Shown one piece after another: positions 1,843 to 32,431 of a stretch of DNA of 33,005 nt. A program made the position numbers and the translations under genes. The stretch is taken from UHGV virus genome UHGV-0323875, one strand, 5' to 3'. The number at the start of each line of letters is the position of its first letter. Positions within the stretch are counted from its first letter, which is position 1. The notes below the pieces were generated by a model. That model saw nothing but the letters and a program-made list of their open reading frames with translations, was not told the origin of the DNA and searched no databases. This stretch comes from a virus.

Positions 1843-1879
1843 CTATGGGGAAGTCCCTCCGGGCTATAATCCAGCACTG
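1843..1879. repeat. Right arm of the 37 bp inverted repeat in int
   Basis: CTATGGGGAAGTCCCTCCGGGCTATAATCCAGCACTG; encodes GEVPPGYNPA on the plus strand. Confidence 0.85.
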
Positions 1880-2054
1880 CCGGGTTCTTTGCTCAGCCAG
1901 GCGTGAATTTGCCTCAGTGGCAATAGCAATGGCTTCAGCTTCGTTTGTGCCTAAAGAATGAAACTTCCCGGTCACTGGATGTTTATATCGCCAATAGACT
2001 TTATTTACTTTTCTACTATAAAGCGGATACAAGTTCGGGACTGAAACATTATTT

Positions 2055-2300
2055 TTACGTGGTCTGGCTGCCATTACTTAAAATCCTTTGTAGAATAATA
2101 GAATCATTTTTCTTGATGACAGGAGTAACTAATTCCCCAACTAACTCTGCGTCCTCACGCACTCGCCATAGTCGACCTTGTTTCATTGCCGGTGGACAAA
2201 ATAAATTCTGCTTAGCATAACGACGCAATGTGGACACGCTTGGAGGATTACTTCTGTATTTTTCCGCAGCCCATTCCTCAAGTGTCAGCATTTGAAGCAT
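2055..2300 (-). CDS. xis: Excisionase (lambda Xis-like)
   Basis: LTLEEWAAEKYRSNPPSVSTLRRYAKQNLFCPPAMKQGRLWRV parallels the lambda Xis N-terminus; overlaps the int start as in lambda; start chosen at the internal ATG with a GAGG RBS (ORF track extends to 2315). Confidence 0.7.
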   Translation of the reverse strand: MLQMLTLEEWAAEKYRSNPPSVSTLRRYAKQNLFCPPAMKQGRLWRVREDAELVGELVTPVIKKNDSIILQRILSNGSQTT

Positions 2301-2343
2301 TTTTGATAACCTCATTTCTTTTGCTACAAAACTATTTCACTAG

Positions 2344-2892
2344 TTAATTTCGCTGTCTGGATTGTTTATGCATCTTATGCAGCTCTTTAAAGCGTTCCAT
2401 AAACATCCCGTAGGCATGGCCCGGTGCCAGTGGAATCACGTTGAACATCTCTGTTGCCGGGATGCCTTCCAGTACAGGCCAGAAAGAGCCATCATCAAGC
2501 CCGAGATCGCGGCGTTCGGTTGCCAGCATGATGAGATCGGCATATTTCACGGGCGTACTCATAACCGGGGGTAACCCGTATTTCTCACGGATTACGGCGT
2601 CTATTTTTTCTTCCATCTGTTTATAGTCAGGAAGAAGGCGTTTCAGTGGAGCGGGGATGTCCTGGCAATACACTTCTGTTGCATCATGCATTAACGCTTC
2701 AAAAGCAAATTCCTGCGGTACCAGTTGGCTGCAAAGAACCGCATGTTGGGCGACGCTGTAGAAGTGTGAAAGATGTCCTGCAAAGCGACAGATATTTGAA
2801 AGGGAAAACGCGATATCGTTAATAACGATATCGTCTTTATTTATCCTGTCATAATAAAAATGCTTCCCAGAAAAAGTTTTAATAAATGACAT
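2344..2892 (-). CDS. HD-domain phosphohydrolase (YfbR/YfdR-like 5'-deoxynucleotidase family)
   Basis: H..H and HD motifs (FAGHLSHFYSVAQHAV...ALMHDATEVYCQDIPAPLK) align with the YfbR HD domain; start MSFIKTF with a GGAGAA RBS. Confidence 0.6.
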   Translation of the reverse strand: MSFIKTFSGKHFYYDRINKDDIVINDIAFSLSNICRFAGHLSHFYSVAQHAVLCSQLVPQEFAFEALMHDATEVYCQDIPAPLKRLLPDYKQMEEKIDAVIREKYGLPPVMSTPVKYADLIMLATERRDLGLDDGSFWPVLEGIPATEMFNVIPLAPGHAYGMFMERFKELHKMHKQSRQRN

Positions 2893-3020
2893 TTTGTTCT
2901 CCACGTTATTTGCGCTGCACCGCACTGAATTCTGGTAAAAGGAAGCCCTCACCATCCGGCGATTATTGAGTTAATTACGTTTCCATAAATGCCCCCGCAG
3001 GGGCATTTGCAGTAATCAAA

Positions 3021-3845
3021 TCAGGCGGTGAAAGTACCAATAAAGGTTTCTACTTTGCTGTCTTTGAATTTCTCAACAAGCAGATCGCGAAATTCGTTAG
3101 CCATTTCTTCCTGCACCGCCTCCAGCTGAATAATGCGCAGAACAAGTACAGGACGATCGCCAGTGATAATGCTGAGGCGTAATTTAAAAGAACGTTCTTT
3201 CAGACCTTCAAACGGAACGCATTTAAATTCAAATGCCACTGGCATAATGTCTTTGGTCTTCGCTTCGACAGACTCCATCAGGGAGCGTTTGCCGCTGAAG
3301 TCATTGTCTTCAAAATCAGCAGTCTGGTTCGCTTCAATTGTGATTTTACGGATCGCCGCAGCCGCTTTGGTTGCCTGAATGGCGTCACCATTAGCATCAA
3401 AGCCCACAAGGTTGTCGGCCCAGTCTTCAATCCATTCTGCCAGTGATTTCTGGGAGTTACGCTCGCCGTGAACAGACAACAGAGCAGAGAACGGTGCTGT
3501 CTTTTTCAGTTTGAGAGTGGCGGTGTTATCTGCGTGGCCTGGTTCATCAATAGTACCCAGGTTAAGCACACTGACGGCACGCATATTATCAGCATCGATA
3601 AAGCAGCGGGTGCCTTCATCTGCAAGATCTTTAGAATAACGGGTAAAGTCATCAATGCTGGCAGTGGAAAGCGCACCACGGAAACGGAAGCGATTTAAAT
3701 TAAATTTTTCCAGGTCATGAATGCGGAAATTCTCAGGCAATGCCACAGCATCGGCACCAATCTTACTGATAATTTCATTAACACCCTGAGCAGAAATAAG
3801 GGCATGGATTTGATTAATTGCGGTTGCGTCTAAGTTCTGAGACAT
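3021..3845 (-). CDS. Hypothetical prophage protein, 274 aa (YfdQ/DUF2303-like)
   Basis: Long ORF with ordinary composition; size and position match the YfdQ family of KplE1-type prophages (from memory, not searched). Confidence 0.5.
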
Positions 3846-3910
3846 AATAAGTCCTCACTATATAAAGATATTCAGTGATGAGATAAATAATCAGTTAATT
3901 AAAAACGATA

Positions 3911-4273
3911 TTAACGACCTGCTGCGCGGAGTTTTCCGTCAGGTTCACCGGCAAGAGTCAGTAACTGTCCCTGGTCTTCCTGCAGAATAGTCAGGCGACC
4001 ACCGCGATTGACATACATCGGCGTTTCGGTGGTGTCTTCTTCGGAAATTTTCCCGCGGTTAGTCGGGCGAACATATGAGAGTTTGTGTTTGATTTTCACA
4101 CGGTTCTCATCAAATGGTTCGATTTCCAGGTTGAGTGAGACCTTACCTTTGGTTTTCGTGTTCATCACACCGGAAGCGACTTCACTGAGAACTGCGCCGA
4201 TTTTGGTTTCAAATACGCCGCCGTCCAGCTCCCCGATAAATGCCTGCACATCAGTACTGCGTTCGCTAGCCAT
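3911..4273 (-). CDS. Hypothetical prophage protein, 120 aa (YfdP-like)
   Basis: Start MASERSTD preceded by a GAGGAG RBS; the upstream extension to 4591 in the ORF track is GC-rich non-coding-looking sequence. Confidence 0.5.
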   Translation of the reverse strand: MASERSTDVQAFIGELDGGVFETKIGAVLSEVASGVMNTKTKGKVSLNLEIEPFDENRVKIKHKLSYVRPTNRGKISEEDTTETPMYVNRGGRLTILQEDQGQLLTLAGEPDGKLRAAGR

Positions 4274-4710
4274 TTTGCTGCTCCTCATCATATCGACCCT
4301 GCAAGGCCGATTAGTTTCTCCACAAAACAGAGAAGAACACCTGCGGTGGCAGCCGCCCGGATGGATTGGGTTATGAGCCCGTCGTCCGGTGATGCTCTTC
4401 TCTGTTTTGTAAAAAGGACGGTACCAGCCGGAAGCAAGGGTACAAACTGGTACCGCCAGGACTACACACAGCATAAAGTTGTGGTGCCGGGTGCCTCCCG
4501 GTGCCTGGCGAAGGTTGCACACCAGACGGGTGGGTATCCACAGAAGGTCGACTGTCAGCCTCAACCTTAACCCGCGTGCGCTGAGCCGCATTCACCACAA
4601 CGCTAAGGATTCTCTCTGGTTGAAAATACTTAGCTGTTATGTGCCTGTCTTTTCACCACTTCAGGCTCGGTGGTATCCTTTTAAGCCCGTATACATAAAA
4701 GGAAAATCAA

Positions 4711-4860
4711 ATGACTTTTGATGAAAAAGAACTTGATAATGCAATTAATAAAATCATCGTAACGTCGCTCTTTTCCTGTCTCAGCGACACTCAGCAGAAA
4801 CAGTTCTACGAATCGGCTTTCAACATGATCGAGCGTTGTTGTTTCTGCGATGCCGACTAG
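4711..4860 (+). CDS. Small hypothetical protein, 49 aa
   Basis: ATG with an AAGGA RBS; MTFDEKELDNAINKII...; below the ORF-track size cut-off. Confidence 0.35.
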   Translation: MTFDEKELDNAINKIIVTSLFSCLSDTQQKQFYESAFNMIERCCFCDAD

Positions 4861-4873
4861 TTACCTGAAAAAA

Positions 4874-5149
4874 TCAGGAAACAGTTGGCTGATGCTCTTC
4901 GAGTGCGACTTTCTGACCAATTTTCTGAAATGTGCTCTCCGAATTTGGACAAATAGAAAAAGGCCATTTCCATTCAGGGTCTGATGGAAATACTTCAGCC
5001 TGTTCCAAAGCACGGCGTAAAGAGAACACAACTCCAGCCATAATCTGATGTTTCCCATTGGCCCAGCTATCGCCGCTCTGATCTACATGGGCGGCTATGT
5101 CGTATGACCAAACGACTTCACCACTATTGTTTAAAATCTGGACTTTCAT
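4874..5149 (-). CDS. Hypothetical protein, about 91 aa, first gene of the leftward operon downstream of cI
   Basis: ORF 4874..5170; an AGGTG RBS favours the internal start MKVQILNN. Confidence 0.4.
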   Translation of the reverse strand: MKVQILNNSGEVVWSYDIAAHVDQSGDSWANGKHQIMAGVVFSLRRALEQAEVFPSDPEWKWPFSICPNSESTFQKIGQKVALEEHQPTVS

Positions 5150-5275
5150 TTCATACACCTGCTTTAACATGAGTGCCTAGTGGCACAACATGACTCAACG
5201 AATCATCCTGGACTTCATATGCCCCAGGCGGCTACTTCGTGGGCGTCCTGCCTGTTCGTTATTTTTGATATAAAA

Positions 5276-5289
5276 TCTAACTTAACTTA
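5276..5289. promoter_or_regulatory. Putative repressor operator (OL-like), palindrome CTAACTTAACTTAG
   Basis: Same CTAA(G/C)-N4-CTTAG architecture as the two sites between cI and cro. Confidence 0.45.
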
Positions 5290-5355
5290 GTTATTATGGC
5301 AAGAGAAAACACCAAACTTTTCTTAGTTCGGTGCCTTAGTTAGAGAAGAGAGGTC

Positions 5356-5982
5356 TTAGAGTTCGTATTGAACTCCTTTGACTACACCAATGATAAGGCA
5401 ATTACCATTGATAGGGATGTTGGGATACCGAGGATTTAATGGCACTAAAAACTTTTGAGGGCCATCGATGACTAATTTTTTTACTGTAGCTTCGTTTGTT
5501 CCATCAAGTCGAGCGATGACTATTTTTCCATGACGAGGTTCTGCATCTGGATCTACAATCACTGTTGCGCCTTCTGGTATTGTTGGGAGGCCATTAGGGT
5601 TAGTCATGGAGTCACCTTTAACCTCTAATGCAAATGAGTTATCACCAATCTTTAATGATGTATCTACCCACTTGTCCACTTCACTAAACACTTCTGCTGC
5701 CCTGCACTCAGTAAACTGCCCAGCCTGAACCCACGATATTACAGGAACTCTGCGCATGTTTGTGACGAGTTTGCCTTCAAACTCAGCACCATAAAGAATG
5801 TAATCTATTGACGTATTGAAGAACTTCGCTAATTTCGAAAGTGCCTCCCCACCAGGGGTATTGATGTCTTTCTCCCAGTACCCCACAGCAACGTCGCTTA
5901 CTCCACAAAATTTACCCAATTCTTTCTGGGACGTTCCGGTAACTCTTCTCAGAGCTTTTATACGCTGACCAACCGTTTCCAT
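5356..5982 (-). CDS. cI: CI-type prophage repressor (N-terminal HTH, C-terminal S24 LexA-like peptidase domain)
   Basis: HTH segment TSQKELGKFCGVSDVAVGYWE; C-terminal GDSM...G.TV.VD...G.IV.AR motifs typical of S24 autocleaving repressors; divergent to cro. Confidence 0.9.
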   Translation of the reverse strand: METVGQRIKALRRVTGTSQKELGKFCGVSDVAVGYWEKDINTPGGEALSKLAKFFNTSIDYILYGAEFEGKLVTNMRRVPVISWVQAGQFTECRAAEVFSEVDKWVDTSLKIGDNSFALEVKGDSMTNPNGLPTIPEGATVIVDPDAEPRHGKIVIARLDGTNEATVKKLVIDGPQKFLVPLNPRYPNIPINGNCLIIGVVKGVQYEL

Positions 5983-6004
5983 AGGAGCACCATTTCTTGA
6001 ATTG

Positions 6005-6067
6005 CTAAGTAATCTTAGTTTTTATTGACCAAAGATAGATTTGTAATTAGCATCTAATAAAACTTAG
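6005..6067. promoter_or_regulatory. OR-like region: two 14 bp palindromic operators (6005..6018 CTAAGTAATCTTAG; 6054..6067 CTAATAAAACTTAG) with a TTGACC -35-like hexamer for rightward transcription
   Basis: Repeated inverted half-sites CTAAG/CTTAG in the cI-cro intergenic region; the site at 6054 sits just upstream of the cro RBS. Confidence 0.5.
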
Positions 6068-6079
6068 TTTGGAGGGCGT

Positions 6080-6280
6080 ATGACAACTGACGATATCGAA
6101 AGCTACTTCGGCAGTATTGAGAAAGTTGCTGCTTTTTTCGGCATAACAACTGAAGCCGTTTATCAGTGGCGAAACCGTCCGGGCCAGTTAATTCCAAAAG
6201 GACGTGCAGCAGAAGCTGCATATAGAACTTGCGGACGGTTGCCATTTAAACCTGAGCTTTATGAAAAATCTAATGGATAA
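6080..6280 (+). CDS. cro: Cro-like HTH regulator (YdaS/Cro family)
   Basis: 66 aa; GGAGGG RBS; ITTEAVYQWRNRPGQLIP is a Cro/YdaS-like HTH; divergent from cI. Confidence 0.75.
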   Translation: MTTDDIESYFGSIEKVAAFFGITTEAVYQWRNRPGQLIPKGRAAEAAYRTCGRLPFKPELYEKSNG

Positions 6281-6869
6281 ATCGATTAACAGAAACCACA
6301 GAACGATGAGGCTAACCGTGGGTAAGCATCACTGGAAAGTAGAAAAACAGCCTGAGTGGTACGTGAAAGCTGTCAGAAAAACTATCGCAGCGTTGCCGGG
6401 TGGTTACGCTGAAGCAGCTGACTGGCTGGATGTAACAGAAAACGCATTATTTAACCGCCTTCGTGCCGATGGCGATCAGATTTTCCCGCTGGGATGGGCA
6501 ATGATTTTGCAACGTGCTGGTGGAACTCACTTCATTGCTGACGCTGTGGCGCAGTCTGCAAATGGCGTCTTTGTGTCTCTTCCTGACGTCGAGGATGTGG
6601 ACAACGCCGATATTAACCAGCGCCTGCTGGAAGTCATTGAACAGATTGGCAGTTATTCCAGACAGATTCGTTCGGCAATCGAAGACGGTGTGGTGGAACC
6701 GCATGAGAAGACAGCAATTAACGACGAGCTGTATCTCTCAATTTCGAAGCTGCAGGAGCATGCAGCACTGGTCTACAAAATCTTTTGCATTTCAGAAAGT
6801 AATGACGCCCGCGAGTGTGCAGCTCCGGGCGCCGTGGCGTGTCGTGACTGTGGAGAAACTAACGCATGA
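6261..6869 (+). CDS. CII-like regulatory protein (putative)
   Basis: Position immediately after cro; about 200 aa; start ambiguous (ATG at 6261 or 6273, ORF track 6204). Confidence 0.45.
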
Positions 6870-7204
6870 ACAGTTTAACAACACACTACCGTCGCTCGCA
6901 ACTGATTGCGCTTCCTGTACCGGGTGGAAAAGCGAAGGTGGAGTATTGCTATGCAGTTAATGTACCAGGTGACAGGGAAATTGTAACCCACAGCTTTGCT
7001 GAGTGGGCTGTGGGTGATTTCAACCGGCAGAAGGAGACAGTCCTTTGCGACAAGTTAACCGCTGGTTCAAAGATCACTACGGAGTGCCCGTCAGAGTCAT
7101 TCGTTGGGAGCCGGAAACACAACGAGTTATCTACCTCCGCGAAGGCTATGAGCATGAGTGCTTCAGCCCGCTCGAACAGTTTCGTCGTAAATTCAGGGAA
7201 ATAG
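6866..7204 (+). CDS. Hypothetical protein; only the first ~60 codons look protein-like and a second frame (7045..7224, AAGGAG + TTG) looks more coding downstream
   Basis: Frame-2 [13 protein letters not shown]...; frame-1 ORF encodes [54 protein letters not shown]; possible frameshift or two overlapping small genes. Confidence 0.35.
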
Positions 7205-7213
7205 AGGTCGGTC

Positions 7214-8155
7214 ATGAGCACTAAATTAACCGGCTATGTATGGGATGGTTGCGCTGCATCAGGCATGAAATTATCCAGCGTGGCAATTATGGCCCGCCTG
7301 GCTGATTTCAGTAATGACGAAGGTGTGTGCTGGCCATCAATTGAAACTATTGCCCGTCAGATTGGCGCGGGGATGAGTACCGTCAGGACGGCTATCGCAC
7401 GGCTGGAAGCAGAAGGCTGGTTAACGCGTAAGGCGCGTCGCCAGGGTAACCGCAATGCGTCGAATGTTTATCAGCTTAACGTTGCGAAGCTTCAGGCAGC
7501 GGCATTTTCTCAACTGTCAGATTCTGACCCGTCAAAATCTGACGCATCAAAATCTGACCCGTCAAAATTTGATGCGTCGAAATCTGGCAAAAAAGCGGGT
7601 TTTCACCCGTCAGAATCTGGCGGGGATCCGTCAGTAAAATCAAAACATGATCCGTCAGATAAAAAACCTTCTCGTCCGGACGCTTCGCAACCGGACACGC
7701 AGACGGATGAACAGGATTTTTTAACTCGCCATCCTGATGCGGTTGTATTCAGCCCTAAAAAGCGCCAGTGGGGAACGCAGGATGATTTGACCTGCGCACA
7801 GTGGCTCTGGAAAAAAATCATCGCCCTGTACGAGCAAGCCGCCGAATGTGACGGCGAGGTGGTTCGTCCCAAAGAACCGAACTGGACAGCCTGGGCAAAC
7901 GAAATTCGCCTGATGTGTGTGCAGGATGGTCGTACTCACAAACAAATCTGCGAGATGTACAGCCGCGTCAGCCGCGATCCGTTCTGGTGCCGTAACGTGC
8001 TCAGCCCGTCGAAGTTGCGGGAAAAATGGGATGAGCTTTCCCTGCGCTTATCGCCGTCCGTCAGCACGCACACAGAAAAACGCGAAGACCCGTACTTCAA
8101 AGCCAGTTACGACAATGTGGACTACAGCCAGATCCCGGCGGGATTCAGGGGGTGA
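7214..8155 (+). CDS. Replication initiation protein (lambda O-like, N-terminal winged HTH)
   Basis: Position after cro/cII; N-terminal HTH; internal low-complexity linker (DPSKSDASKSDPSKFDASKS) encoded by iteron-like repeats, as in lambda O. Confidence 0.7.
   Translation: MSTKLTGYVWDGCAASGMKLSSVAIMARLADFSNDEGVCWPSIETIARQIGAGMSTVRTAIARLEAEGWLTRKARRQGNRNASNVYQLNVAKLQAAAFSQLSDSDPSKSDASKSDPSKFDASKSGKKAGFHPSESGGDPSVKSKHDPSDKKPSRPDASQPDTQTDEQDFLTRHPDAVVFSPKKRQWGTQDDLTCAQWLWKKIIALYEQAAECDGEVVRPKEPNWTAWANEIRLMCVQDGRTHKQICEMYSRVSRDPFWCRNVLSPSKLREKWDELSLRLSPSVSTHTEKREDPYFKASYDNVDYSQIPAGFRG
7513..7660. repeat. Iteron-like ~15 bp tandem repeats (CCGTCAAAATCTGAC variants) inside the O-like gene, followed by an A-rich stretch: putative phage replication origin
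   Basis: At least 5 tandem or near-tandem copies, plus further CCGTCAG motifs. Confidence 0.6.
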
Positions 8156-8646
8156 TCATGAGTCTTTTGAATGACGTTCAGAAATTCATTGAAGCCCATC
8201 CGGGCTGTTCTTCCGGAGACATTGCGGATGCTTTTGCAGGTTACTCACGGCTGCGCGTTCTGCAGTCAGCAAGCAAGTTACGTCAGAGTGGGCGTGTGGC
8301 TCACCGTTGTGAAGGAGATACACGCAGACATTTCCCGCGCCTGACTGAGAGAGCGCAGGAGCCGGAACCACAACCAGTTCGTGAAACCAGACCTGTGCGC
8401 AATTTCTATGTCGGCACTAACGATCCCCGGGTGATTTTGTGCCTGACCCGCCAGGCTGAAGAACTGGAGTCCAGGGGCTTATACCGTCGTGCTGCAACGG
8501 TGTGGATGGCGGCATTCCGTGAAAGCCACTCCCAGCCAGAACGAAACAATTTTCTGGCGCGTCGTGAGCAGTGCTTACAGAAAAGCAGCAAGCGCGCTGC
8601 ATCGGGTGAAGAGTGGTATCTGTCAGGGAATTACGTGGGGGCGTAA
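8152..8646 (+). CDS. Hypothetical protein, 164 aa (possible PerC/YfdN-like regulator)
   Basis: Start and stop overlap the neighbouring genes; C-terminal LYRRAATVWMAAFRES segment resembles PerC/ANR-type helices (weak, from memory). Confidence 0.45.
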   Translation: MIMSLLNDVQKFIEAHPGCSSGDIADAFAGYSRLRVLQSASKLRQSGRVAHRCEGDTRRHFPRLTERAQEPEPQPVRETRPVRNFYVGTNDPRVILCLTRQAEELESRGLYRRAATVWMAAFRESHSQPERNNFLARREQCLQKSSKRAASGEEWYLSGNYVGA

Positions 8647-8972
8647 TGACGACGTTAACTCAATGCCAGCATCAGGTGCTGGATATGCTGATTTCTTACC
8701 AGAAAGAGCGTGGCTTTCCGCCAACCAATCAGGAGGTGGCAACCATGCTGGGATACCGTTCAGTGAATGCAGCGGTAGAGCATCTTCGTGCACTGGAGAA
8801 AAAAGGCGTCATCACGATAAAGCGTGGCGTGGCCCGGGGGATCACGCTTCATACCACAGTGAAGGACGACGACAGCGAGGCAGCCGGGATTATCCGCGCA
8901 CTGCTTGCCGGTGAGGAAAACGCCAGACTGCGTGCAGCCCACTGGTTACATGAGAGGGGCCTGAAAGTATGA
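8646..8972 (+). CDS. LexA-like DNA-binding-domain protein with no S24 peptidase domain
   Basis: LTQCQHQVLDMLISYQKERGFPPTNQEVATMLGYRSVNAAVEHLRALEKKGVITIKRGVARGITL parallels the E. coli LexA N-terminal winged HTH nearly residue for residue; the protein ends after about 108 aa. Confidence 0.7.
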   Translation: MTTLTQCQHQVLDMLISYQKERGFPPTNQEVATMLGYRSVNAAVEHLRALEKKGVITIKRGVARGITLHTTVKDDDSEAAGIIRALLAGEENARLRAAHWLHERGLKV

Positions 8973-9358
8973 AGCTGATCCTGCCTTTCCCGCCCAGCGT
9001 GAACACGTACTGGCGACACCCCAACAAAGGGGCGTTTGCTGGTAAGAGTCTGATAAGCGCAGCGGGGCGCAAATTCCAGAGCGCGGCATGCGCAGCAATA
9101 GTTGAGCAGTTACGTCGTCTGCCGAAACCAACGTCGGCACCTGCTTCAGTGGAGATCGTGTTGTTTCCTCCGGATAACCGGATCCGCGATCTGGACAACT
9201 ATAACAAGGCGCTGTTTGACGCCCTGACCCACGCGGGTGTGTGGGAAGACGACAGACAGGTGAAAAGAATGCTGGTGGAGTGGGGACCGGTTATCCCGGA
9301 AGGGAAGGTCGAGATCACTATCAGTAAGTATGAGAAACCGGCGGGTGCAGCCGCCTGA
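8969..9358 (+). CDS. rusA: Holliday junction resolvase RusA
   Basis: LPFPPSVNTYWRH...RDLDNYNKALFDALTHAGVWEDDRQV matches the RusA signature. Confidence 0.85.
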   Translation: MKLILPFPPSVNTYWRHPNKGAFAGKSLISAAGRKFQSAACAAIVEQLRRLPKPTSAPASVEIVLFPPDNRIRDLDNYNKALFDALTHAGVWEDDRQVKRMLVEWGPVIPEGKVEITISKYEKPAGAAA

Positions 9359-9377
9359 TTAAGAGGAGAAACGAAGT

Positions 9378-10175
9378 ATGAATAATCTGATGGTTATTGA
9401 TGGTATTGAAGTTCGTCGTGATGCTTATGGGCGTTACAGCCTGAACGATCTGCACAGGGCTGCCGGTTCTCTGGATAAGCATAAGCCTGCATTCTGGCTC
9501 CGTAATGAGCAAACTGAACGTTTAATAAGCGAGTTGCAGATTTGCAACTCGGTCAATATAGAGCCAGTTAACGTTATTCGTGGCGGAAATAACCAGGGGA
9601 CGTATGTCTGCAAAGAACTGGTGTATGCCTATGCAATGTGGATCAGCCCGTCATTCCATCTGAAGGTGATCCGTACTTTCGATATGGTAACCAGCACACC
9701 GGAAAAATTATCCGGGCAGGCTGCTGACAAGATGCAGGCTGGCGTGATCCTGCTGGACTTTATGCGCCGGGAGTTAAACCTGTCTAACTCTTCAGTGCTT
9801 GGTGCCTGTCAGAAACTCCAGGAGGCTGTTGGCTTACCGAATCTGGCTCCGCGCTATGCCATTGATGCTCCTGCTGACGCGCCTGATGGCTCAAGCCGCC
9901 CCACGCTGTCACTGAGTGCACTGCTGAAGCAGTATGGTATCTGCCTGACAGCTAATCAGGCATATCACCAGATGGCGAAGCTGGGGATCGTTGAACAACG
10001 CGAACGATACAGCCGTACCGCGATTAACAACATCAAAAAATTCTGGTCGCTGACGGCGAAAGGCTGCATGTTCGGCAAGAACATCACCAGTCCTGCAAAT
10101 CCGCGCGAGACGCAGCCGCATTTCTTCGAATCCCGATTCCCTGAGCTGTTAAAGCTGCTCGATACCGTTCATTGA
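9378..10175 (+). CDS. KilA-N domain protein (antirepressor-like)
   Basis: N-terminal YSLNDLHRAAG...KP.FWLR motif of the KilA-N domain; GAGGAG RBS. Confidence 0.65.
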   Translation: MNNLMVIDGIEVRRDAYGRYSLNDLHRAAGSLDKHKPAFWLRNEQTERLISELQICNSVNIEPVNVIRGGNNQGTYVCKELVYAYAMWISPSFHLKVIRTFDMVTSTPEKLSGQAADKMQAGVILLDFMRRELNLSNSSVLGACQKLQEAVGLPNLAPRYAIDAPADAPDGSSRPTLSLSALLKQYGICLTANQAYHQMAKLGIVEQRERYSRTAINNIKKFWSLTAKGCMFGKNITSPANPRETQPHFFESRFPELLKLLDTVH

Positions 10176-10176
10176 G

Positions 10177-11172
10177 GTGACCGTGAGAGCACTACTGACC
10201 CCTGAAATTGCCCCGCGTATGGGGATCGTATTGTTCAGACCAGGTTCAGAGCTGATGCCCCTGTTTATGCAGGGGCGTGTCCTGCTGGAGCCTGAGCCGG
10301 AACGTTATTCATCTTTCGCCAGTGGTGCCGTTCCGGCGGCATCACAACCGCTGGCGGATGATCCTGCCGTTCAGGCCGTGTTCCGCAATGAGGCAGTGAT
10401 CCGTCGTGCTGGTGGCGTGGAATGTCTTGAAAGCTGGTTACTTCGTGAAAAAGGCTGCCAGTGGCCTCATTCCGACTGGCACAGCGAGAACATGACCACA
10501 ATGCGACACGCTCCGGGCGCAATCCGTCTGTGCTGGCACTGCGATAACCAGCTGCGCGATCAGTTCACGGAACGGCTGGAATCAATGGCAACGGATAACT
10601 GTGCCCGCTGGGTGTTGTCTGTTGTGCGTCGGGATCTCGGTTTTGATGACAGTCACGTTGTGACAATGCCGGAACTGTGCTGGTGGCTGATTCGTAATGA
10701 CCTGGCGGATGCCTTACCGGAAAGTGCAGCCCGTAAGGCACTTAGATTACCGAAGCCTGTTGTGCCGTCTGTCACCCGGGAAAGTGACCTTGTGCCTTCG
10801 GTTCCTGCCACCAGCATCATCCAGGATAAGGCGAAAAAGGTGCTGGCGCTGAAAGTGGATCCGGAGTCGCCGGAGTCTTTTATGTTACGCCCAAAACGTC
10901 GCCGCTGGGTTAATGAAAAGTACACGCGCTGGGTTAAGACACAGCCGTGTGCATGTTGTGGAAAGCCTGCTGATGATCCCCACCACTTGATAGGCCACGG
11001 TCAGGGGGGAATGGGTACAAAAGCGCATGACCTCTTTGTGTTGCCTTTGTGCAGAAAGCATCACGACGAGCTGCATGCGGATACCGTGGCATTTGAAGAG
11101 AAGTATGGCTCCCAGCTGGAGCTGATATTTCGTTTTATCGATCGTGCGCTGGCAATAGGCGTACTGGCGTAA
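10177..11172 (+). CDS. DUF968-like protein with a C-terminal Cys/His (HNH-like) motif
   Basis: C-terminal CACCGKPADDPHHLIGHGQGG...LCRKHHDELH; GTG start directly after the KilA-N stop. Confidence 0.45.
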   Translation: MTVRALLTPEIAPRMGIVLFRPGSELMPLFMQGRVLLEPEPERYSSFASGAVPAASQPLADDPAVQAVFRNEAVIRRAGGVECLESWLLREKGCQWPHSDWHSENMTTMRHAPGAIRLCWHCDNQLRDQFTERLESMATDNCARWVLSVVRRDLGFDDSHVVTMPELCWWLIRNDLADALPESAARKALRLPKPVVPSVTRESDLVPSVPATSIIQDKAKKVLALKVDPESPESFMLRPKRRRWVNEKYTRWVKTQPCACCGKPADDPHHLIGHGQGGMGTKAHDLFVLPLCRKHHDELHADTVAFEEKYGSQLELIFRFIDRALAIGVLA

Positions 11173-11185
11173 GTGGAGAATGAGC

Positions 11186-11938
11186 ATGAACCTTGAAGCC
11201 TTACCAAAATATTACTCCCCAAAATCTCCAAAATTGAGCGATGACGCACCGGCGACAGGCTCTGGTGGTTTAACGATTACGGATGTGATGGCTGCGCAGG
11301 GGATGGTGCAGTCGAAAGCACCACTGGGTTTTGCCTTATTCCTGGCAAAAGTTGGTGTTCAGGATCCTCAGTTTGCGATTGAAGGTCTGCTCAATTACGC
11401 GATGGCACTGGATAACCCGACATTGAATAAATTGAGTGAAGAAACCCGGTTACAGATCATCCCTTACCTTGTGAATTTTGCCTTTGCTGATTATTCCAGG
11501 TCTGCGGCAAGTAAGGCTCGCTGTGAGCATTGTGCTGGTACTGGATTTCATAATGTATTGCGCGAAGTGGTGAAACACTCCAGAAGCGGTGAATCTGTTA
11601 TCAAGGAGGAGTGGGTGAAGGAACTATGTCAGCATTGTCATGGTAAGGGAGAAGTCAGCACAGCGTGCAGAGGGTGTAAGGGTAAAGGTATTGTCCTGGA
11701 TGAAAAAAGGACCCGGCTTCATGGCACGCCTGTTTATAAGATTTGTGGGCGTTGCAATGGAAACCGGTTTAGCCGTTTACCAACCACACTGGCGCGGCAT
11801 CATGTCCAGAAGCTGGTACCAGACCTGACGGATTATCAGTGGTACAAAGGATATGCAGATGTCATTGATAAACTGGTTACAAAGTGCTGGCAGGAAGAAG
11901 CATATGCAGAGACACAATTGAGAAAGGTGACAAGATAA
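11186..11938 (+). CDS. Late-gene antitermination protein Q-like (zinc-binding CxxC repeats)
   Basis: Position immediately upstream of the late promoter/terminator and lysis genes; CEHCAGTG, CQHCHGKG, CRGCKGKG, CGRCNG motifs. Confidence 0.6.
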   Translation: MNLEALPKYYSPKSPKLSDDAPATGSGGLTITDVMAAQGMVQSKAPLGFALFLAKVGVQDPQFAIEGLLNYAMALDNPTLNKLSEETRLQIIPYLVNFAFADYSRSAASKARCEHCAGTGFHNVLREVVKHSRSGESVIKEEWVKELCQHCHGKGEVSTACRGCKGKGIVLDEKRTRLHGTPVYKICGRCNGNRFSRLPTTLARHHVQKLVPDLTDYQWYKGYADVIDKLVTKCWQEEAYAETQLRKVTR

Positions 11939-12045
11939 ATGATTTTCGACGAAGATGGCGACATGATACTTGCATTTTTCAAAAAATCTGGTTAGGATTC
12001 TCCTAACGATGGGCTTTATATGTCTGCCGTTAACGAAATCATAAC

Positions 12046-12076
12046 AAACCTCGCTTCGGCGGGGTTTTTGCTTTTC
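12046..12076 (+). terminator. Rho-independent terminator (tR'-like) downstream of the Q gene
   Basis: Stem ACCTCGC / GCGGGGT with a TTCG tetraloop followed by TTTTTGCTTTT. Confidence 0.6.
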
Positions 12077-12088
12077 TGGAGGTCAATA

Positions 12089-12346
12089 ATGCAGGGCGAA
12101 AAGCAGCAGCCATATTTTTTTAACCCTGGTATGACTGTTGAACAGCTTGAAGACTGGCTGGAGCAGCAAAAGCTTCATCTAAGCCGCTATAACCGTCTGG
12201 TAAAAGAAAAAGCAGAGCTTGAAGAACGGCTCAGTGATATTTCTGTGGAAATTGAACGAATGTCTGCTGGTGGTTTTAACGGAAAGTTGAGTTTCCCCTG
12301 GGAGTCAAGTTCGCTTCTGAGAAATCATCAACAGGGTAGTGTTTGA
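12089..12346 (+). CDS. Hypothetical late protein, 85 aa
   Basis: GGAGG RBS and ATG at 12089; the ORF-track start at 12020 would overlap the terminator. Confidence 0.45.
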   Translation: MQGEKQQPYFFNPGMTVEQLEDWLEQQKLHLSRYNRLVKEKAELEERLSDISVEIERMSAGGFNGKLSFPWESSSLLRNHQQGSV

Positions 12347-12425
12347 CTGAAATAATAAACAGACTGTCATTAAGATCCCTTCCCCTCATATCTGAGAGGA
12401 CCAACAGCAATTAAGAGGGGGCTAA

Positions 12426-12812
12426 ATGTCCGATCCGATTTCCGGTACTGGGCTGGCTGGTGGTGCCCTGACGGGTGCCAGTGTTTATGGACTGCTGACC
12501 GGAACTGATTACGGCGTTGTATTTGGCGCATTTGCAGGGGCTGTATTCTACATAGCAACAGCAGCAGATCTGAGTGCATCGCGCCGACTGGCATATTTTA
12601 TCGTGTCATATATTGCCGGGATTCTTTGCTCTGGGTTGGTTGGCTCCAAGCTGGCGAACTTGACCGGATACAGTGATAAACCTCTGGATGCTATTGGTGC
12701 CGTAATCGTCTCTGCTTTAGCCGTTAAAATCCTGACGTTCCTGAATAATCAGGATATCGGCTCGCTGGTGGCGCTCATAACGCGCCGGGGAGGTTCAGGT
12801 GGAGCTAAATGA
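12426..12812 (+). CDS. Holin (putative, multi-pass membrane protein)
   Basis: Gly/Ala-rich hydrophobic segments; first gene of the lysis cassette. Confidence 0.6.
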   Translation: MSDPISGTGLAGGALTGASVYGLLTGTDYGVVFGAFAGAVFYIATAADLSASRRLAYFIVSYIAGILCSGLVGSKLANLTGYSDKPLDAIGAVIVSALAVKILTFLNNQDIGSLVALITRRGGSGGAK

Positions 12813-13080
12813 CCCGACAGCAACTATAAATGCGCTGTTATGTGCTTGTGTTGTTATTACTCTGATGTTTTATCGTCGTGGTGATTCGCGGCATCGTCCT
12901 TGGGTTTCACGTTTAGCCTGGCTGATTACTGTTACATACAGTGCTGTTCCGTTGGCCTATCTCTGTGGGATTTATCCCCATTCCTCATGGCCCATTATCG
13001 TGGCGAACACTATTTTTCTTTCCGTGCTGGTGGCCGTCAGAGGCAACGTTGCACGTCTGGTTGATCATCTGAGGCACTAA
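12799..13080 (+). CDS. Small membrane protein (holin/antiholin-like)
   Basis: 93 aa with predicted transmembrane helices; lies between the holin and the endolysin. Confidence 0.5.
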   Translation: MELNDPTATINALLCACVVITLMFYRRGDSRHRPWVSRLAWLITVTYSAVPLAYLCGIYPHSSWPIIVANTIFLSVLVAVRGNVARLVDHLRH

Positions 13081-13694
13081 TGAACCAACAATTATTTCAA
13101 AAGGCGGCTGGTATTAGCGCCGGGCTGGCTGCGCGCTGGTTTCCGCACATTGATGCTGCAATGAAAGAGTTTGGAATCACAGCAGTTAACGATCAGGCCA
13201 TGTTCATTGCACAAGTTGGGCATGAATCTGCTGGTTTTACCTCGCTGGTAGAGAATTTTAACTACTCGGTTGAAGGGCTGAAGAAAACCTTTGGTAAGCG
13301 CCTGACGCCGTATCAGTGCGAAATGCTGGGGCGTGTCGATGGTAAACAGGTCGCTCACCAGCCACAAATAGCCAATCTGGTTTATGGTGACCGCATGGGG
13401 AATAACAGTCAGGGTGATGGCTGGAAATATCGCGGTCGTGGCCTGCTGCAAATCACTGGTCGTGAGAACTACACCAAATGCGGTACAGCGCTGAACCTTG
13501 ATCTGATCAGTACGCCAGAACTTTTGACGCAAGAGCGACATGCGGCCCGTTCGGCGGCATGGTACTTCACGTTACGTGGTTGCCTTCTATATTCGGGGGA
13601 TGTTGAGCGCGTCACGCAGATTATTAACGGCGGGCAGAACGGCATTAAAGACCGCCGTGAACGTTACGCCAAAGCAAAAACCGCACTGGTATGA
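13080..13694 (+). CDS. Endolysin, glycoside hydrolase family 19 (chitinase-like lysozyme)
   Basis: FIAQVGHESAGF...YRGRGLLQITGRENY...INGG motifs typical of GH19 phage endolysins. Confidence 0.8.
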   Translation: MNQQLFQKAAGISAGLAARWFPHIDAAMKEFGITAVNDQAMFIAQVGHESAGFTSLVENFNYSVEGLKKTFGKRLTPYQCEMLGRVDGKQVAHQPQIANLVYGDRMGNNSQGDGWKYRGRGLLQITGRENYTKCGTALNLDLISTPELLTQERHAARSAAWYFTLRGCLLYSGDVERVTQIINGGQNGIKDRRERYAKAKTALV

Positions 13695-13701
13695 GGTCGC
13701 A

Positions 13702-13971
13702 ATGGGACTTGAAATGATTATCGGCCTGGCTGTTGCTGTGCTGGCTGCAATTGCAGGTGCTTTTGGTCTGGGTAAATCACGCGGTACAAGCATCGCAGAA
13801 ACACAAGCGAACCAGCAACGCACTGAAGAACGCGCAGCAGCTACTGAAGCCGTTGCAGAACGCCGGGTAGAAACAACAAAAGGAGCCAGGGATGTACAGC
13901 AGACTGTTAACCATCTTCCTGATGACGATGTTGACCGTGAGTTGCGCGAAAAATTTACCCGCAAAACCTGA
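13702..13971 (+). CDS. i-spanin (Rz-like)
   Basis: N-terminal transmembrane helix followed by a charged coiled region; directly follows the endolysin. Confidence 0.6.
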   Translation: MGLEMIIGLAVAVLAAIAGAFGLGKSRGTSIAETQANQQRTEERAAATEAVAERRVETTKGARDVQQTVNHLPDDDVDRELREKFTRKT

Positions 13972-14134
13972 AGTAACGGACACGGCCTGTGACTGGGTAA
14001 GCATCATCTACCTTACTGAGCACGATATTGCCGTGCTGGATAAACAGACGAAGCGGGACATATTGGCGCACAACAAATCAGTGCAGGCTAACTGCATGAA
14101 GGATCCAGGTCGTGAACGTAGAGAACCTAAGTAA
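13892..14134 (+). CDS. o-spanin (Rz1-like lipoprotein), overlapping the end of Rz in another frame
   Basis: Signal peptide MYSRLLTIFLMTMLTVSC with a lipobox Cys; overlaps the Rz 3' end. Confidence 0.6.
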   Translation: MYSRLLTIFLMTMLTVSCAKNLPAKPEVTDTACDWVSIIYLTEHDIAVLDKQTKRDILAHNKSVQANCMKDPGRERREPK

Positions 14135-14342
14135 CGCGCATTACATCTATAACGAGATGAAAGAGCTACAGCGACAGAAAACCATACTGGAAAGTGGTGC
14201 TGGGCTTGGTGTGACAATCCAGTCTACCTATCAAGACGATGCCTTTCTTGAGGCCATACGCCCGCATGCTGTTGCTGAGCTTGATCACCGCATAGAGAAA
14301 AAGAAAGCTGTGCTGGTTGATTTGGGTATCTCCTTCTCCTAA
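14112..14342 (+). CDS. Small hypothetical protein (uncertain)
   Basis: 76 aa ORF with a GTG start overlapping the Rz1 end; no recognisable family. Confidence 0.3.
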   Translation: MNVENLSNAHYIYNEMKELQRQKTILESGAGLGVTIQSTYQDDAFLEAIRPHAVAELDHRIEKKKAVLVDLGISFS

Positions 14343-14416
14343 TGAATTAGGAGCTACAGCAGGTTTTAATTATGTGCTTATGATATTCTTCCCTAGTTAA
14401 TTAACTGGGGGAGTAA

Positions 14417-14980
14417 ATGCAAATGCTTGAATTTGTTGAGTCAGTAAGAAAATCTTTATTAGATGAAAATTATGAGGCTGCATTGTTTATTGCCTTATCT
14501 CTTCCTGATATATGTGGGAAACTTGAAACTCCTGAAGAGCGGAACGGGCCAAGAGCAAAAAGATGGTTTAAGGATAACCTTAAGGATAAATATTTTGCAG
14601 ATAATCTTTATGAGACGTTTTTGGCTAACTTTCCCGAGCAATTAGATAAAATGCCTCAATACTTAATCGATGATTTAAAAACAAAAAAACCATTGGTAAG
14701 CTTTGACCATGAAAGCTACTGGGCTTTAAGAAATGCATTTTTGCATGAGGCATCTGATAGTACTAAGTTACAAAAAATTCAACTTACGCACTCTTCTGCG
14801 CACATGAATATGTTTAACGGTGTGCTTCAGTTAAGTGTTATTAATTTATCTAATGATATCTGCGATGCGGTAGTTAAGTGGGTTGAGCGGATGAAGGATA
14901 ATAATGATGTATGCCAGAGGATAAATTCGAGGGCAAAAATCAAAAATGAAATGTTGGGTGGCGCTATTCGATTTGGGTAG
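14417..14980 (+). CDS. AT-rich moron protein of unknown function, 187 aa, with an R-x4-H motif (possible HEPN-like)
   Basis: Marked drop in GC content relative to both flanks; GGGGGAG RBS; motif WALRNAFLHE; followed by a strong terminator. Confidence 0.5.
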   Translation: MQMLEFVESVRKSLLDENYEAALFIALSLPDICGKLETPEERNGPRAKRWFKDNLKDKYFADNLYETFLANFPEQLDKMPQYLIDDLKTKKPLVSFDHESYWALRNAFLHEASDSTKLQKIQLTHSSAHMNMFNGVLQLSVINLSNDICDAVVKWVERMKDNNDVCQRINSRAKIKNEMLGGAIRFG

Positions 14981-15041
14981 TCTTACAAATTATCAAATCA
15001 TTCCTACATGTTATCTCTAAATTTTAGAGTTACATAAGAAT

Positions 15042-15072
15042 AAAAAAACACCAGCTTTGGCTGGTGTTTTTG
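15042..15072 (+). terminator. Rho-independent terminator after the moron gene
   Basis: A-run, stem ACACCAGC / GCTGGTGT with a TTTG loop, then TTTTT. Confidence 0.7.
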
Positions 15073-15082
15073 CGGAGCATGT

Positions 15083-15433
15083 ATGCCAACTTTAATACCC
15101 CGCGCATGTCGCAAACGTGGTTGTCCTGGCACGACTACGGACCGTTCAGGCTACTGTGAGCAGCATCGCAATGAGGGCTGGCAGCAGCATCAGCAGGGTA
15201 AGAGTCGCCATGAGCGTGGCTACGGCAGCAAGTGGGATATCAAACGCGCCCGCATCCTGAAGCGTGATAATCATCTGTGTCAGAACTGCCTGCGTACTGG
15301 ACGTGCTGTCGCAGCCACAACCGTTGACCACATCAAGGCGAAGGCCCACGGCGGTACTGATGAAGACAGCAACCTTGAGAGCCTGTGCTGGTCGTGTCAC
15401 GCAGCGAAGACCGCGCGCGAGCGGCTCAAGTGA
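15083..15433 (+). CDS. HNH endonuclease (terminase-associated)
   Basis: CxxC...H.H...N...CWSCHAAK motifs; directly upstream of the terminase small subunit. Confidence 0.75.
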   Translation: MPTLIPRACRKRGCPGTTTDRSGYCEQHRNEGWQQHQQGKSRHERGYGSKWDIKRARILKRDNHLCQNCLRTGRAVAATTVDHIKAKAHGGTDEDSNLESLCWSCHAAKTARERLK

Positions 15434-15559
15434 GAATTAATGTCATCATCAGCCTGGGGAGGGGGAGGTCAAATCTCTGCGACCGCGCGCCTTCCGGACC
15501 GCCCGCCCCATCGTTTTTTTATACCCGCGAAAAATGAAATTTAACCAGGAGTGCCGCAT

Positions 15560-32428: not shown

Positions 32429-32431
32429 TCC

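What the first reader, a model, noticed from the sequence alone, without database searches (positions are those of the whole stretch)
8646..8972. Prophage-encoded LexA DNA-binding domain without the protease domain
The 108 aa protein parallels the LexA N-terminal winged HTH nearly residue for residue but lacks the S24 autocleavage domain, so it should be a non-cleavable SOS-box binder. It could hold SOS-box promoters (including the box at 891..906, or host SOS genes) repressed during DNA damage, or compete with host LexA. It is translationally coupled (overlapping start and stop codons) to its neighbours in the replication/nin-like operon.
Basis: partly seen in the sequence, partly recalled or inferred. 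Interest (0 to 1): 0.6.

Follow-up and report, generated by a model that had tools for sequence, protein, structure and literature searches.

The report
Prophage mini-LexA lacking the protease domain
A prophage gene found in about 40% of complete E. coli genomes encodes the DNA-binding head of the SOS repressor LexA joined to a short helical tail instead of the self-cleaving domain, so DNA damage cannot switch it off, but whether it really binds the host's SOS operators is still untested and one key contact residue is changed.

Summary
ORF 8646..8972 (+) encodes 108 aa whose residues 1-69 are a full-length LexA winged helix-turn-helix domain: Pfam PF01726 E=7.8e-19, 48-50% identical to E. coli LexA with no gaps, and the model superposes at 0.9 A. 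There is no S24 protease domain. Its start and stop codons overlap the neighbouring genes in the pR early operon.

It is not new as an object. It is SfV orf42 / PHROG 362, present in 2231 of 5426 complete E. coli genomes and routinely annotated "LexA family transcriptional regulator". I found no functional study.

New here:
- A conserved C-terminal two-helix tail replaces the dimerisation/protease domain across Enterobacteriaceae relatives.
- Glu44 is present in 75/75 autoregulated full-length LexA genes but in 0/40 family members. Other specificity positions (42-45) vary between clades, while the backbone and wing contacts are invariant.
- Long-form relatives lie behind strong SOS boxes, twice next to dinI.

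Best reading: a RecA-insensitive, LexA-derived dimeric regulator acting on SOS-like dyads, with LexA-related but modified specificity. A phage-specific operator, as for GIL01 gp6, is nearly as likely. Interest is moderate.

The parts
8646..8972 (+). mini-LexA CDS (108 aa, SfV orf42 / PHROG 362 family), stop codon included
   Evidence: 93-98% identical proteins in SfV, SfII, SfIV, cdtI, mEp460 and Stx2a/2c phages
8646..8852 (+). residues 1-69: LexA-type winged helix-turn-helix domain
   Evidence: PF01726 1-65/65; model helices 6-22, 28-35, 40-52 and strands 56-58, 66-68; 0.9 A rmsd to 3jso
8760..8801 (+). residues 39-52: recognition helix SVNAAVEHLRALEK. LexA has SPNAAEEHLKALAR, so it differs by P40V and E44V
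8865..8954 (+). residues 74-103: conserved two-helix tail (helices 74-88 and 93-103) after a low-confidence linker at 69-73; putative dimerisation module
   Evidence: A97 and L101 in 40/40; hydrophobic residues at 82, 83, 86, 87, 100; no PDB or Pfam match
8644..8648 (+). TAATG: stop of the PerC-like ORF overlaps the start of mini-LexA
8969..8972 (+). ATGA: start of RusA overlaps the stop of mini-LexA
6025..6053 (+). pR-like promoter (TTGACC-17-TAGCAT) that most likely drives the operon containing the gene; consensus match only
   Evidence: cI-type S24 repressor at 5356..5982 (-) and a cro-like ORF from 6081
8152..8646 (+). upstream neighbour, PerC-like (YfdN-type) protein
8969..9358 (+). downstream neighbour RusA; conserved partner in synteny across clades
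10177..11172 (+). DUF968/HNH protein; conserved member of the same nin-like block
11180..11938 (+). Q antiterminator, end of the early operon; pR' and tR' follow at about 11960-12067
889..908 (.). the only SOS box in the window (TTCTGTATGCATATACAGTA). It lies 77 bp upstream of the ATG (812) of a minus-strand cargo ORF; candidate but unproven target

Best explanation
The gene encodes a LexA-derived DNA-binding regulator that RecA* cannot inactivate. It consists of a LexA winged-helix head (residues 1-69), a short flexible linker, and a conserved two-helix tail that takes the place of the S24 dimerisation/protease domain.

It is transcribed as a delayed-early gene of the pR operon, between the replication genes and Q. 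It is therefore made after prophage induction or infection, the time when host LexA has been or may be cleaved.

Inferred mechanism: the tail dimerises the protein. The dimer binds CTGT-type dyads, meaning SOS boxes or a variant or subset of them, and blocks those promoters regardless of the RecA* signal. This uncouples some LexA-controlled genes (host SOS genes, SOS-controlled morons such as the one behind the 889-908 box, or rival elements) from the damage signal during lytic growth.

Glu44 is replaced throughout the family, so I expect specificity that overlaps LexA's but is not identical to it.

Shown: fold, domain loss, conservation, operon position, SOS-linked contexts of relatives. Inferred: dimerisation, DNA target, repression.
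For: - Full-length LexA NTD homology and fold.
- Residues invariant or nearly so in 40 family members include the LexA DNA-contact or wing residues S39, N41, K53, R64 and G65. DNA binding is therefore the conserved property.
- In the E. coli clade the recognition helix differs from LexA only by P40V and E44V. Position 40 also varies (P/A/V) in genuine LexAs.
- Purifying selection: dN/dS 0.27 against SfV, and 0.12 in the NTD.
- The tail is conserved down to about 40% identity, with an invariant A97/L101 stripe. This fits a packing or dimerisation surface.
- A LexA DNA-binding domain alone needs a fused dimeriser to repress sulA-lacZ (PMC7595419). LexA NTDs also form an interface with each other on the operator (PMC3159453).
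- Long-form relatives lie directly behind strong SOS boxes: Klebsiella L003 26.9 bits with dinI, Scandinavium L025 25.9 bits with dinI, Enterobacter L089 20.3 bits without dinI.
- The L025 protein keeps the complete LexA-type helix SPNAAEDH.
- No + strand terminator lies between pR and Q.
Against: - Glu44 is in 75/75 autoregulated full-length LexAs and 0/40 family members.
- Position 45 is acidic in only 28/40 members, and positions 42-43 also vary (for example SVNTIAGH, SSNAVLLH). All these hosts share the same SOS box.
- R28 is not conserved.
- Dimerisation through the tail was not tested. pTM is only 0.54, and no multimer prediction was possible.
- Only one SOS box exists in the window, and it is not linked to the gene across genomes.
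- No experimental report was found.
Confidence: 0.4

Rival explanations
1. Phage-specific regulator with diverged specificity, like GIL01 gp6. The captured LexA head has drifted to recognise an operator of its own on the phage or on related phages. It would act as activator or repressor of particular phage promoters and have no effect on the host SOS regulon.
For: - Precedent: gp6 of GIL01 is a truncated LexA homologue that binds its own palindrome and activates the late promoter (PMC6182141).
- Family-wide loss of Glu44, with clade-to-clade variation at helix positions 42-45. Even a 63%-identical Citrobacter relative differs. This resembles diversification of specificity.
- S24-less LexA-domain proteins are common in many phage groups.
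Against: - No candidate dyad operator other than the SOS box was found in intergenic DNA of the early region.
- Late genes here already have a Q antiterminator with pR' and tR'.
- The E. coli clade keeps 6 of 8 helix residues of LexA.
- SOS-box-headed operons and dinI neighbours of long-form relatives point to the SOS circuit.
Confidence: 0.3
2. Strong form of the first reader's idea: a general uncleavable LexA surrogate with the same specificity as LexA. It would shut the whole SOS regulon, or compete with LexA at every SOS box.
For: Same as the best explanation, plus two points. The L025 relative has a fully LexA-like helix. dinI, another SOS-damping gene, is an operon partner in two clades.
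Against: - Glu44 is invariant in true LexAs but absent here.
- The dimerisation module is different.
- If the protein were expressed in lysogens it would make about 40% of E. coli strains SOS-defective, which is not known to be so (my inference).
Confidence: 0.15
3. Not primarily a DNA-site regulator. The LexA-like head or the tail would serve in protein-protein interaction. Examples are a decoy or adaptor for proteases, a partner of RusA/DUF968, or a tail mimicking the LexA cleavage-site region (ALLA-GEE aligned to VAA-GEP) that docks into an S24 active site.
For: - HMMER and TIGR00498 extend the alignment through LexA's hinge and cleavage-site region, placing A88-G89 on A84-G85.
- Tight synteny with RusA and DUF968.
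Against: - The Ala-Gly pair is not conserved in the family: A88 in 23/40, G89 in 17/40.
- The segment is predicted helical, not strand-loop.
- The invariant residues are the DNA-contact ones.
- Overlapping start/stop codons are commonplace in phage operons.
Confidence: 0.08
4. Decaying remnant of a captured lexA gene with no function.
For: It is truncated relative to LexA. Many fused or frameshifted versions exist in databases.
Against: - dN/dS is 0.27.
- Intact ORFs of constant length occur in thousands of genomes and several genera, with a conserved tail and synteny.
Confidence: 0.03

Closest known systems
E. coli LexA (SOS repressor), N-terminal domain (PDB 1lea, 3jso)
   Same: Same winged helix-turn-helix fold, 48-50% identity over residues 2-69 without gaps. 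S39, N41, A42, A43, E45, H46, K53, R64 and G65 are identical.
   Different: - No S24 domain, no Ser119/Lys156, and no autoregulatory SOS box.
- E44V, P40V and R28N substitutions.
- A two-helix tail in place of the dimerisation/protease domain.
GIL01 / Bam35 gp6 (tectivirus truncated LexA homologue, activator of late promoter P3; PMC6182141)
   Same: Phage-encoded LexA DNA-binding domain without the protease domain, made from an early operon.
   Different: - gp6 ends shortly after the wing, whereas this family has an extra conserved two-helix tail.
- gp6 belongs to Gram-positive tectiviruses and binds GaCACAnnTGTGaC with a critical K38.
- Here the hosts are Enterobacteriaceae lambdoid or SfV-like prophages, and late genes are under Q control.
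- I did not compare the sequences directly.
LexA N-terminal cleavage fragment (1-84) and engineered LexA-DBD fusions used in bacterial two-hybrid assays
   Same: A LexA head that RecA* cannot inactivate further. It represses SOS operators only when dimerised by an added module (PMC7595419). Natural cleavage products are removed by ClpXP and Lon (PMC3159453).
   Different: This is a natural, conserved gene with its own tail. The C-terminus is not conserved as a degradation tag. Specificity residue 44 is changed.
SfV orf42 / PHROG 362 'transcriptional repressor' / NCBI 'LexA family transcriptional regulator'
   Same: The window protein is a member: phrog_362 E=6e-58 over the full length, 93.5% identical to SfV orf42, with the same synteny.
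   Different: Nothing structural. The names are annotation by similarity, and I found no experiment behind them.

Membership tests
LexA proper (TIGR00498 equivalog; canonical SOS repressor) | N-terminal LexA-type winged HTH (PF01726) | tested here: met
   PF01726 E=7.8e-19, 1-65/65; 0.9 A to 3jso
LexA proper (TIGR00498 equivalog; canonical SOS repressor) | C-terminal S24 peptidase domain with the Ser/Lys dyad | tested here: not met
   No PF00717 hit. The protein ends at residue 108. TIGR00498 matches only positions 1-91/203, at 66 bits against a cut-off of 111.
LexA proper (TIGR00498 equivalog; canonical SOS repressor) | Recognition-helix signature S39-x-N41-[AS]42-A43-E44-[ED]45-H46, found in 75/75 autoregulated gamma/beta-proteobacterial LexAs | tested here: not met
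   The window has SVNAAVEH, with Val at 44. Glu44 is in 0/40 family members.
LexA proper (TIGR00498 equivalog; canonical SOS repressor) | SOS box(es) directly upstream of its own gene (autoregulation) | tested here: not met
   No site of 10 bits or more anywhere in 909..33005. The gene is internal to the pR operon.
LexA proper (TIGR00498 equivalog; canonical SOS repressor) | Ala-Gly cleavage site processed on the RecA* signal | tested here: inconclusive
   A88-G89 aligns to LexA A84-G85. However, there is no protease in cis, the pair is not conserved in the family, and the segment is predicted helical.
LexA proper (TIGR00498 equivalog; canonical SOS repressor) | Binds CTGT-N8-ACAG | not testable with these tools
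   Needs EMSA, SPR or a reporter assay.
PHROG 362 / SfV orf42 mini-LexA family | Full-length match: LexA head plus conserved two-helix tail, about 105-135 aa | tested here: met
   phrog_362 E=6e-58, 1-108 against 1-106/106; alignments A2 and A3
PHROG 362 / SfV orf42 mini-LexA family | Position in the nin-like block: replication / PerC / (Dam) - mini-LexA - RusA - (KilA-N/Ant) - DUF968 - Q | tested here: met
   window; SfV; Cronobacter, Salmonella, Enterobacter; mEp390
GIL01 gp6-type truncated LexA activators | LexA DNA-binding domain only, phage-encoded | tested here: met
   description of gp6 in PMC6182141
GIL01 gp6-type truncated LexA activators | Own palindromic site overlapping the -35 of a late promoter; activates late genes | tested here: not met
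   No dyad at the pR' region apart from a non-conserved palindrome at 11991-12007. Late control is by Q with pR' and tR'. Activation itself is not testable here.
GIL01 gp6-type truncated LexA activators | Sequence orthology to gp6 (K38 in the recognition helix) | not tested

The most novel reading that the evidence does not exclude
Prophages in roughly 40% of E. coli genomes, and relatives across Enterobacteriaceae, carry a RecA-proof LexA surrogate that re-silences part of the SOS regulon once the phage has been induced. In Klebsiella and Scandinavium it is co-transcribed with dinI from an SOS-box promoter, forming a two-component SOS shut-off module: DinI stops LexA cleavage and mini-LexA replaces the cleaved LexA. 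Family-wide loss of Glu44 would tune affinity or select a subset of boxes, for example toxins, colicins, rival prophages or SOS-controlled cargo genes.
Probability: 0.25. Interest if true: 0.7.

Novelty: new variant of a known kind. Interest (0 to 1): 0.4.

Why it matters
If the protein does bind SOS-type operators, a very common prophage gene would rewire the host DNA-damage response during induction. The gene is present in Shigella serotype-converting phages, cdt phage, and Stx2a, Stx2c and Stx2k phages. The effects could reach mutagenesis, toxin and colicin expression, induction of co-resident prophages, and SOS-controlled defence or cargo genes.

It would also be a natural version of the engineered LexA-DBD-plus-dimeriser design. 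The Glu44 contrast (75/75 in LexA, 0/40 here) gives a specific, cheap hypothesis about LexA specificity to test.

If it instead has its own operator, it is one more phage regulator built from a captured LexA head, like gp6. That would be of interest mainly to phage specialists.

Tried and rejected
- Single-sequence AlphaFold2 gave pLDDT 53 and was not used. The alignment-based run was used instead.
- The LexA-DNA structure paper (PMC2921665) is not held. Contact residues are cited from PMC13416735 and otherwise marked as memory.
- The search for related loci in genome contigs returned mostly genuine lexA genes rather than family members. I turned them into the control set.
- The tail looked HEAT-repeat-like by eye, but Pfam gave only insignificant NIL hits, so I dropped the idea.
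- GACTGAAATAATAAACAGAC at 12345-12364 resembles the SfV box TACTGTAAAAATAAACAGTG. It scores under 10 bits and sits in a different context, because the SfV box lies inside a methyltransferase gene absent here. Rejected as an SOS box.
- Scans found no second candidate operator. I tried CTGT-Nx-ACAG with x = 0-24, relaxed CTNT-N8-ANAG, and all dyads with arms of 6 bp or more in intergenic DNA of 1..14500.
- Six literature searches found no functional study of this family.
It recovered boxes upstream of nearly all 75 control lexA genes, so I consider it adequate for locating strong boxes only.

Full report
1. WHAT IS THERE

ORF 8646..8972 (+) starts at an ATG that shares its A with the TAA of the preceding PerC-like ORF (8152..8646). 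It ends with a TGA that overlaps the ATG of RusA (8969..9358). A G-rich Shine-Dalgarno-like run lies 5 nt upstream.

The 108-aa product matches Pfam LexA_DNA_bind over the whole profile (E=7.8e-19). It also matches the E. coli LexA N-terminal domain in PDB, residues 2-69 aligned to 2-69 without gaps (E=4e-15).

There is no Peptidase_S24 hit. The NCBIfam lexA equivalog matches only model positions 1-91 of 203 and stays well below its cut-off.

An AlphaFold2 model built on a 40-sequence family alignment has pLDDT 81. It shows:
- three helices and a two-strand wing;
- a low-confidence linker at residues 69-73;
- two further helices at 74-88 and 93-103.

Foldseek against PDB puts the head on the LexA-DNA complex 3jso at 0.9 A over 67-68 residues with 48-49% identity. 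Nothing matches the tail.

2. CONTEXT

The window is an SfV/e14-like prophage.
- Left arm: an e14-type int/xis next to icd in a near-identical strain, then YfdR/YfdQ-type genes and a cI-type HTH+S24 repressor at 5356..5982(-).
- Early-right operon: a pR-like promoter at 6025-6053, followed by cro-like, cII-like, an O-like replication protein, PerC-like, mini-LexA, RusA, KilA-N, DUF968 and Q.
- The only strong + strand terminator in 5900-12500 is tR' at 12046-12067, after pR'.

The gene is therefore a delayed-early gene of the pR transcript. This is inferred from the layout; expression was not measured.

3. HOW COMMON AND HOW WELL KNOWN

- The gene is found at 90% nucleotide identity or more in 2231 of 5426 complete E. 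coli genomes, with one to four copies per genome.
- Proteins 93-98% identical occur in phages SfV (orf42), SfII, SfIV, cdtI, mEp460 and several Stx2a, Stx2c and Stx2k phages. They are annotated "LexA family transcriptional regulator", "LexA-like protein" or "transcriptional repressor".
- It is PHROG 362.
- A survey of Stx phages lists a pfam01726-only "LexA family transcriptional regulator" pham without functional comment (PMC8136144).
- Six literature searches found no experimental study of this family.
- The nearest characterised case is gp6 of tectivirus GIL01. It is a truncated LexA homologue that binds its own palindrome and activates the late promoter (PMC6182141).
- S24-less LexA-domain proteins are frequent among predicted viral structures.

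4. THE FAMILY

An exhaustive profile-free search and a profile search found full-length relatives at 40-60% identity. They occur in Citrobacter, Salmonella, Cronobacter, Klebsiella, Enterobacter, Atlantibacter and Kosakonia. All are about 105-135 aa with PF01726 only.

In a 40-sequence alignment:
- Invariant or nearly invariant head residues are S39, N41, H46, K53, R64 and G65, plus structural positions.
- The tail keeps a hydrophobic pattern at 80, 82, 83, 86, 87 and 100, with A97 and L101 invariant and A93 nearly so.

Comparison with SfV gives dN/dS 0.27 overall, 0.12 in the head and 0.52 in the tail, based on few sites.

Synteny is stable: replication / PerC / (Dam) - mini-LexA - RusA - (KilA-N/Ant) - DUF968 - Q. 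This is a functional, conserved gene and not a remnant.

5. DOES IT READ SOS BOXES?

According to PMC13416735 (citing Knegtel 1995), the E. coli LexA residues involved in DNA binding are S39, N41, A42, E44 and E45. The window protein keeps four of these and has Val at 44.

As a control I used 75 full-length lexA genes from Gamma- and Betaproteobacteria that the locus search had returned. Each has the Ser/Lys dyad and a CTGT-N8-ACAG box upstream. In all 75 the helix reads S39-x-N41-[A/S]-A-E44-[E/D]-H46, and only position 40 varies (P/A/V).

In the mini-LexA family:
- Glu44 occurs in 0 of 40 members (13 Ala, 9 Leu, 6 Val, 5 Phe, 3 Thr, 3 Asn, 1 Tyr).
- Position 45 is acidic in 28 of 40.
- Whole-helix variants such as SVNTIAGH (a 63%-identical Citrobacter relative) and SSNAVLLH (Klebsiella) occur.

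All these hosts share one SOS box. A family whose job was to copy LexA at host boxes should have kept LexA's helix. This argues for modified or diversified specificity.

The E. coli clade nevertheless differs from LexA only by P40V, which true LexAs tolerate, and by E44V. One long-form relative (Scandinavium, L025) has the complete LexA-type helix SPNAAEDH.

From memory, not tested here: the LexA408 altered-specificity variant maps recognition of the second base of CTGT to residues 40-42, of which this protein keeps N41 and A42 (position 40 is Val). Acidic residues at 44 and 45 are thought to read cytosine amino groups.

6. LINKS TO THE SOS CIRCUIT

It recovers the boxes of the control lexA genes.

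- Window: exactly one strong site, TTCTGTATGCATATACAGTA at 889-908 (20.8 bits). It lies between the int stop and the ATG (812) of a minus-strand cargo ORF with no hit in any family library.
- That int/cargo segment occurs at 99% identity or more in about 33 genomes, against 2231 for mini-LexA. There is no specific pairing.
- SfV has one strong box inside the first codons of a methyltransferase gene downstream of Q. mEp390 has one between dinI and humD.
- More telling are the long-form relatives, which sit directly behind strong SOS boxes:
  - Klebsiella: box (26.9 bits) - dinI - orfX - mini-LexA.
  - Scandinavium: box (25.9 bits) - dinI - ... - mini-LexA.
  - Enterobacter: terminator - box (20.3 bits) - orfX - mini-LexA - ... 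- Q, with no dinI.

In that clade the gene belongs to a LexA-controlled unit, twice together with another SOS damper. This supports a role in the SOS circuit, but it may reflect a single ancestral arrangement.

7. DIMERISATION

LexA binds as a dimer held by its C-terminal domain. A bare LexA DNA-binding domain represses sulA-lacZ only when a fused partner dimerises it (PMC7595419). The two heads also contact each other on the operator (PMC3159453).

The mini-LexA tail is a conserved amphipathic two-helix hairpin with an Ala-x3-Ala-x3-Leu stripe. It is too small to be stable alone, so a four-helix-bundle dimer is the simplest reading. This is inference only. pTM is 0.54, and I had no multimer prediction available.

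Database proteins with two LexA heads in tandem and no S24 domain (P0154, P0157, P0160, P0129) show another natural route to a bivalent, uncleavable LexA-type binder.

8. SEARCH FOR A PRIVATE OPERATOR

Three scans of the intergenic DNA of the early region found nothing other than the SOS box, terminators, the cI operators and a non-conserved palindrome over the pR' -10:
- CTGT-Nx-ACAG at all spacings from 0 to 24;
- relaxed CTNT-N8-ANAG;
- all dyads with arms of 6 bp or more.

The gp6-like model therefore has no identified target here, but it is not excluded.

9. VERDICT

The object is real and correctly described. It is already catalogued but functionally uncharacterised.

- Best explanation (0.4): a RecA-insensitive, tail-dimerised, LexA-derived repressor acting on SOS-type dyads with modified specificity, made during lytic development.
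- Rival (0.3): a phage-specific regulator with a private operator.
- The strong "general LexA surrogate" reading is weakened by the Glu44 result (0.15).
- A protein-interaction role (0.08) and a dead remnant (0.03) are unlikely.

Novelty: a new variant of a known kind, namely phage LexA-head-only regulators.

Interest is moderate (0.4). The gene is very widespread and the hypothesis is cheaply testable, but the concept has precedent and the key property is unproven.

Noticed in passing
window 1516..1879: A 327-bp segment (1553..1879) inside the e14-type integrase gene is inverted relative to the intact gene of E. coli AH01. It is bounded by 37-bp inverted repeats (1516-1552 and 1843-1879). This splits int into ORFs 928..1587(-) and 1814..2074(-). 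It could be a real recombinational inversion that inactivates int, or an assembly artefact.
   Followed up: partly
window 1..927: The SOS box at 889-908 (20.8 bits) lies 77 bp upstream of a minus-strand ORF of 270 aa or more (ATG at 812, running off the left end). The ORF has no Pfam, PHROG, NCBIfam or PADLOC hit. It sits at the int-proximal cargo position where e14 carries lit, so it is a likely LexA-controlled moron of unknown function.
   Followed up: partly
L003-L005 (Klebsiella) 1..6400: An SOS box TACTGTTTATTTATACAGTA (26.9 bits) lies 20 bp upstream of a prophage dinI, followed by orfX and the long-form mini-LexA. Immediately upstream is an AAA_15/AAA_21 ATPase plus DUF4435 pair, a PARIS-like defence pair (that name is from memory).
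   Followed up: partly
L089/L090 (Enterobacter) 6500..7410 and 11164..11183: A terminator, then a -35/-10 promoter with an overlapping SOS box (20.3 bits), heads the unit orfX - mini-LexA - orf67 - RusA - DUF968 - Q. This implies LexA control of a unit that includes the late-gene antiterminator. A second strong box (25.3 bits) lies after the lysozyme gene.
   Followed up: no
L003 5670..5960, L089 6713..6961, L025 8144..8437: A conserved small ORF (82-97 aa, no Pfam hit) precedes the long-form mini-LexA in Klebsiella and Enterobacter. A 97-aa ORF without a Pfam hit at the corresponding position in Scandinavium was not compared, and there two further genes lie between it and mini-LexA. It is a possible partner protein.
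   Followed up: no
L091 (SfV) 34170..34189; L025 13881..13900: An identical strong SOS box, TACTGTAAAAATAAACAGTG (22.6 bits), occurs in SfV and in Scandinavium. In SfV it lies inside the first codons of the DNA methyltransferase gene (orf48) downstream of Q. In Scandinavium it lies just inside the start of a 350-aa ORF that I did not identify.
   Followed up: partly
proteins P0154, P0157, P0160, P0129: Metagenomic proteins of about 140-165 aa consist of two LexA DNA-binding domains in tandem with no S24 domain. They would be single-chain, uncleavable LexA-type dimers.
   Followed up: no
window 11960..12100: A pR'-like promoter (TTGCAT...TAGGAT) has a palindrome GTTAGGATTCTCCTAAC over its -10, followed by tR' at 12046-12067. 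ORF 12020..12346 therefore probably starts at ATG 12090 behind a GGAGG (85 aa, phrog_3501, unknown function).
   Followed up: partly
L088 (Salmonella) 10373..11098: A pertussis-toxin-S1-like ADP-ribosyltransferase gene sits just downstream of Q in a Salmonella prophage that carries a 54%-identical mini-LexA.
   Followed up: no
L092 (mEp390) 20396..21308: A single SOS box (21.9 bits) lies between divergent dinI and humD (UmuD-like) morons, in a phage that also carries a 46%-identical mini-LexA in the order replication - mini-LexA - RusA - DUF968 - Q.
   Followed up: no
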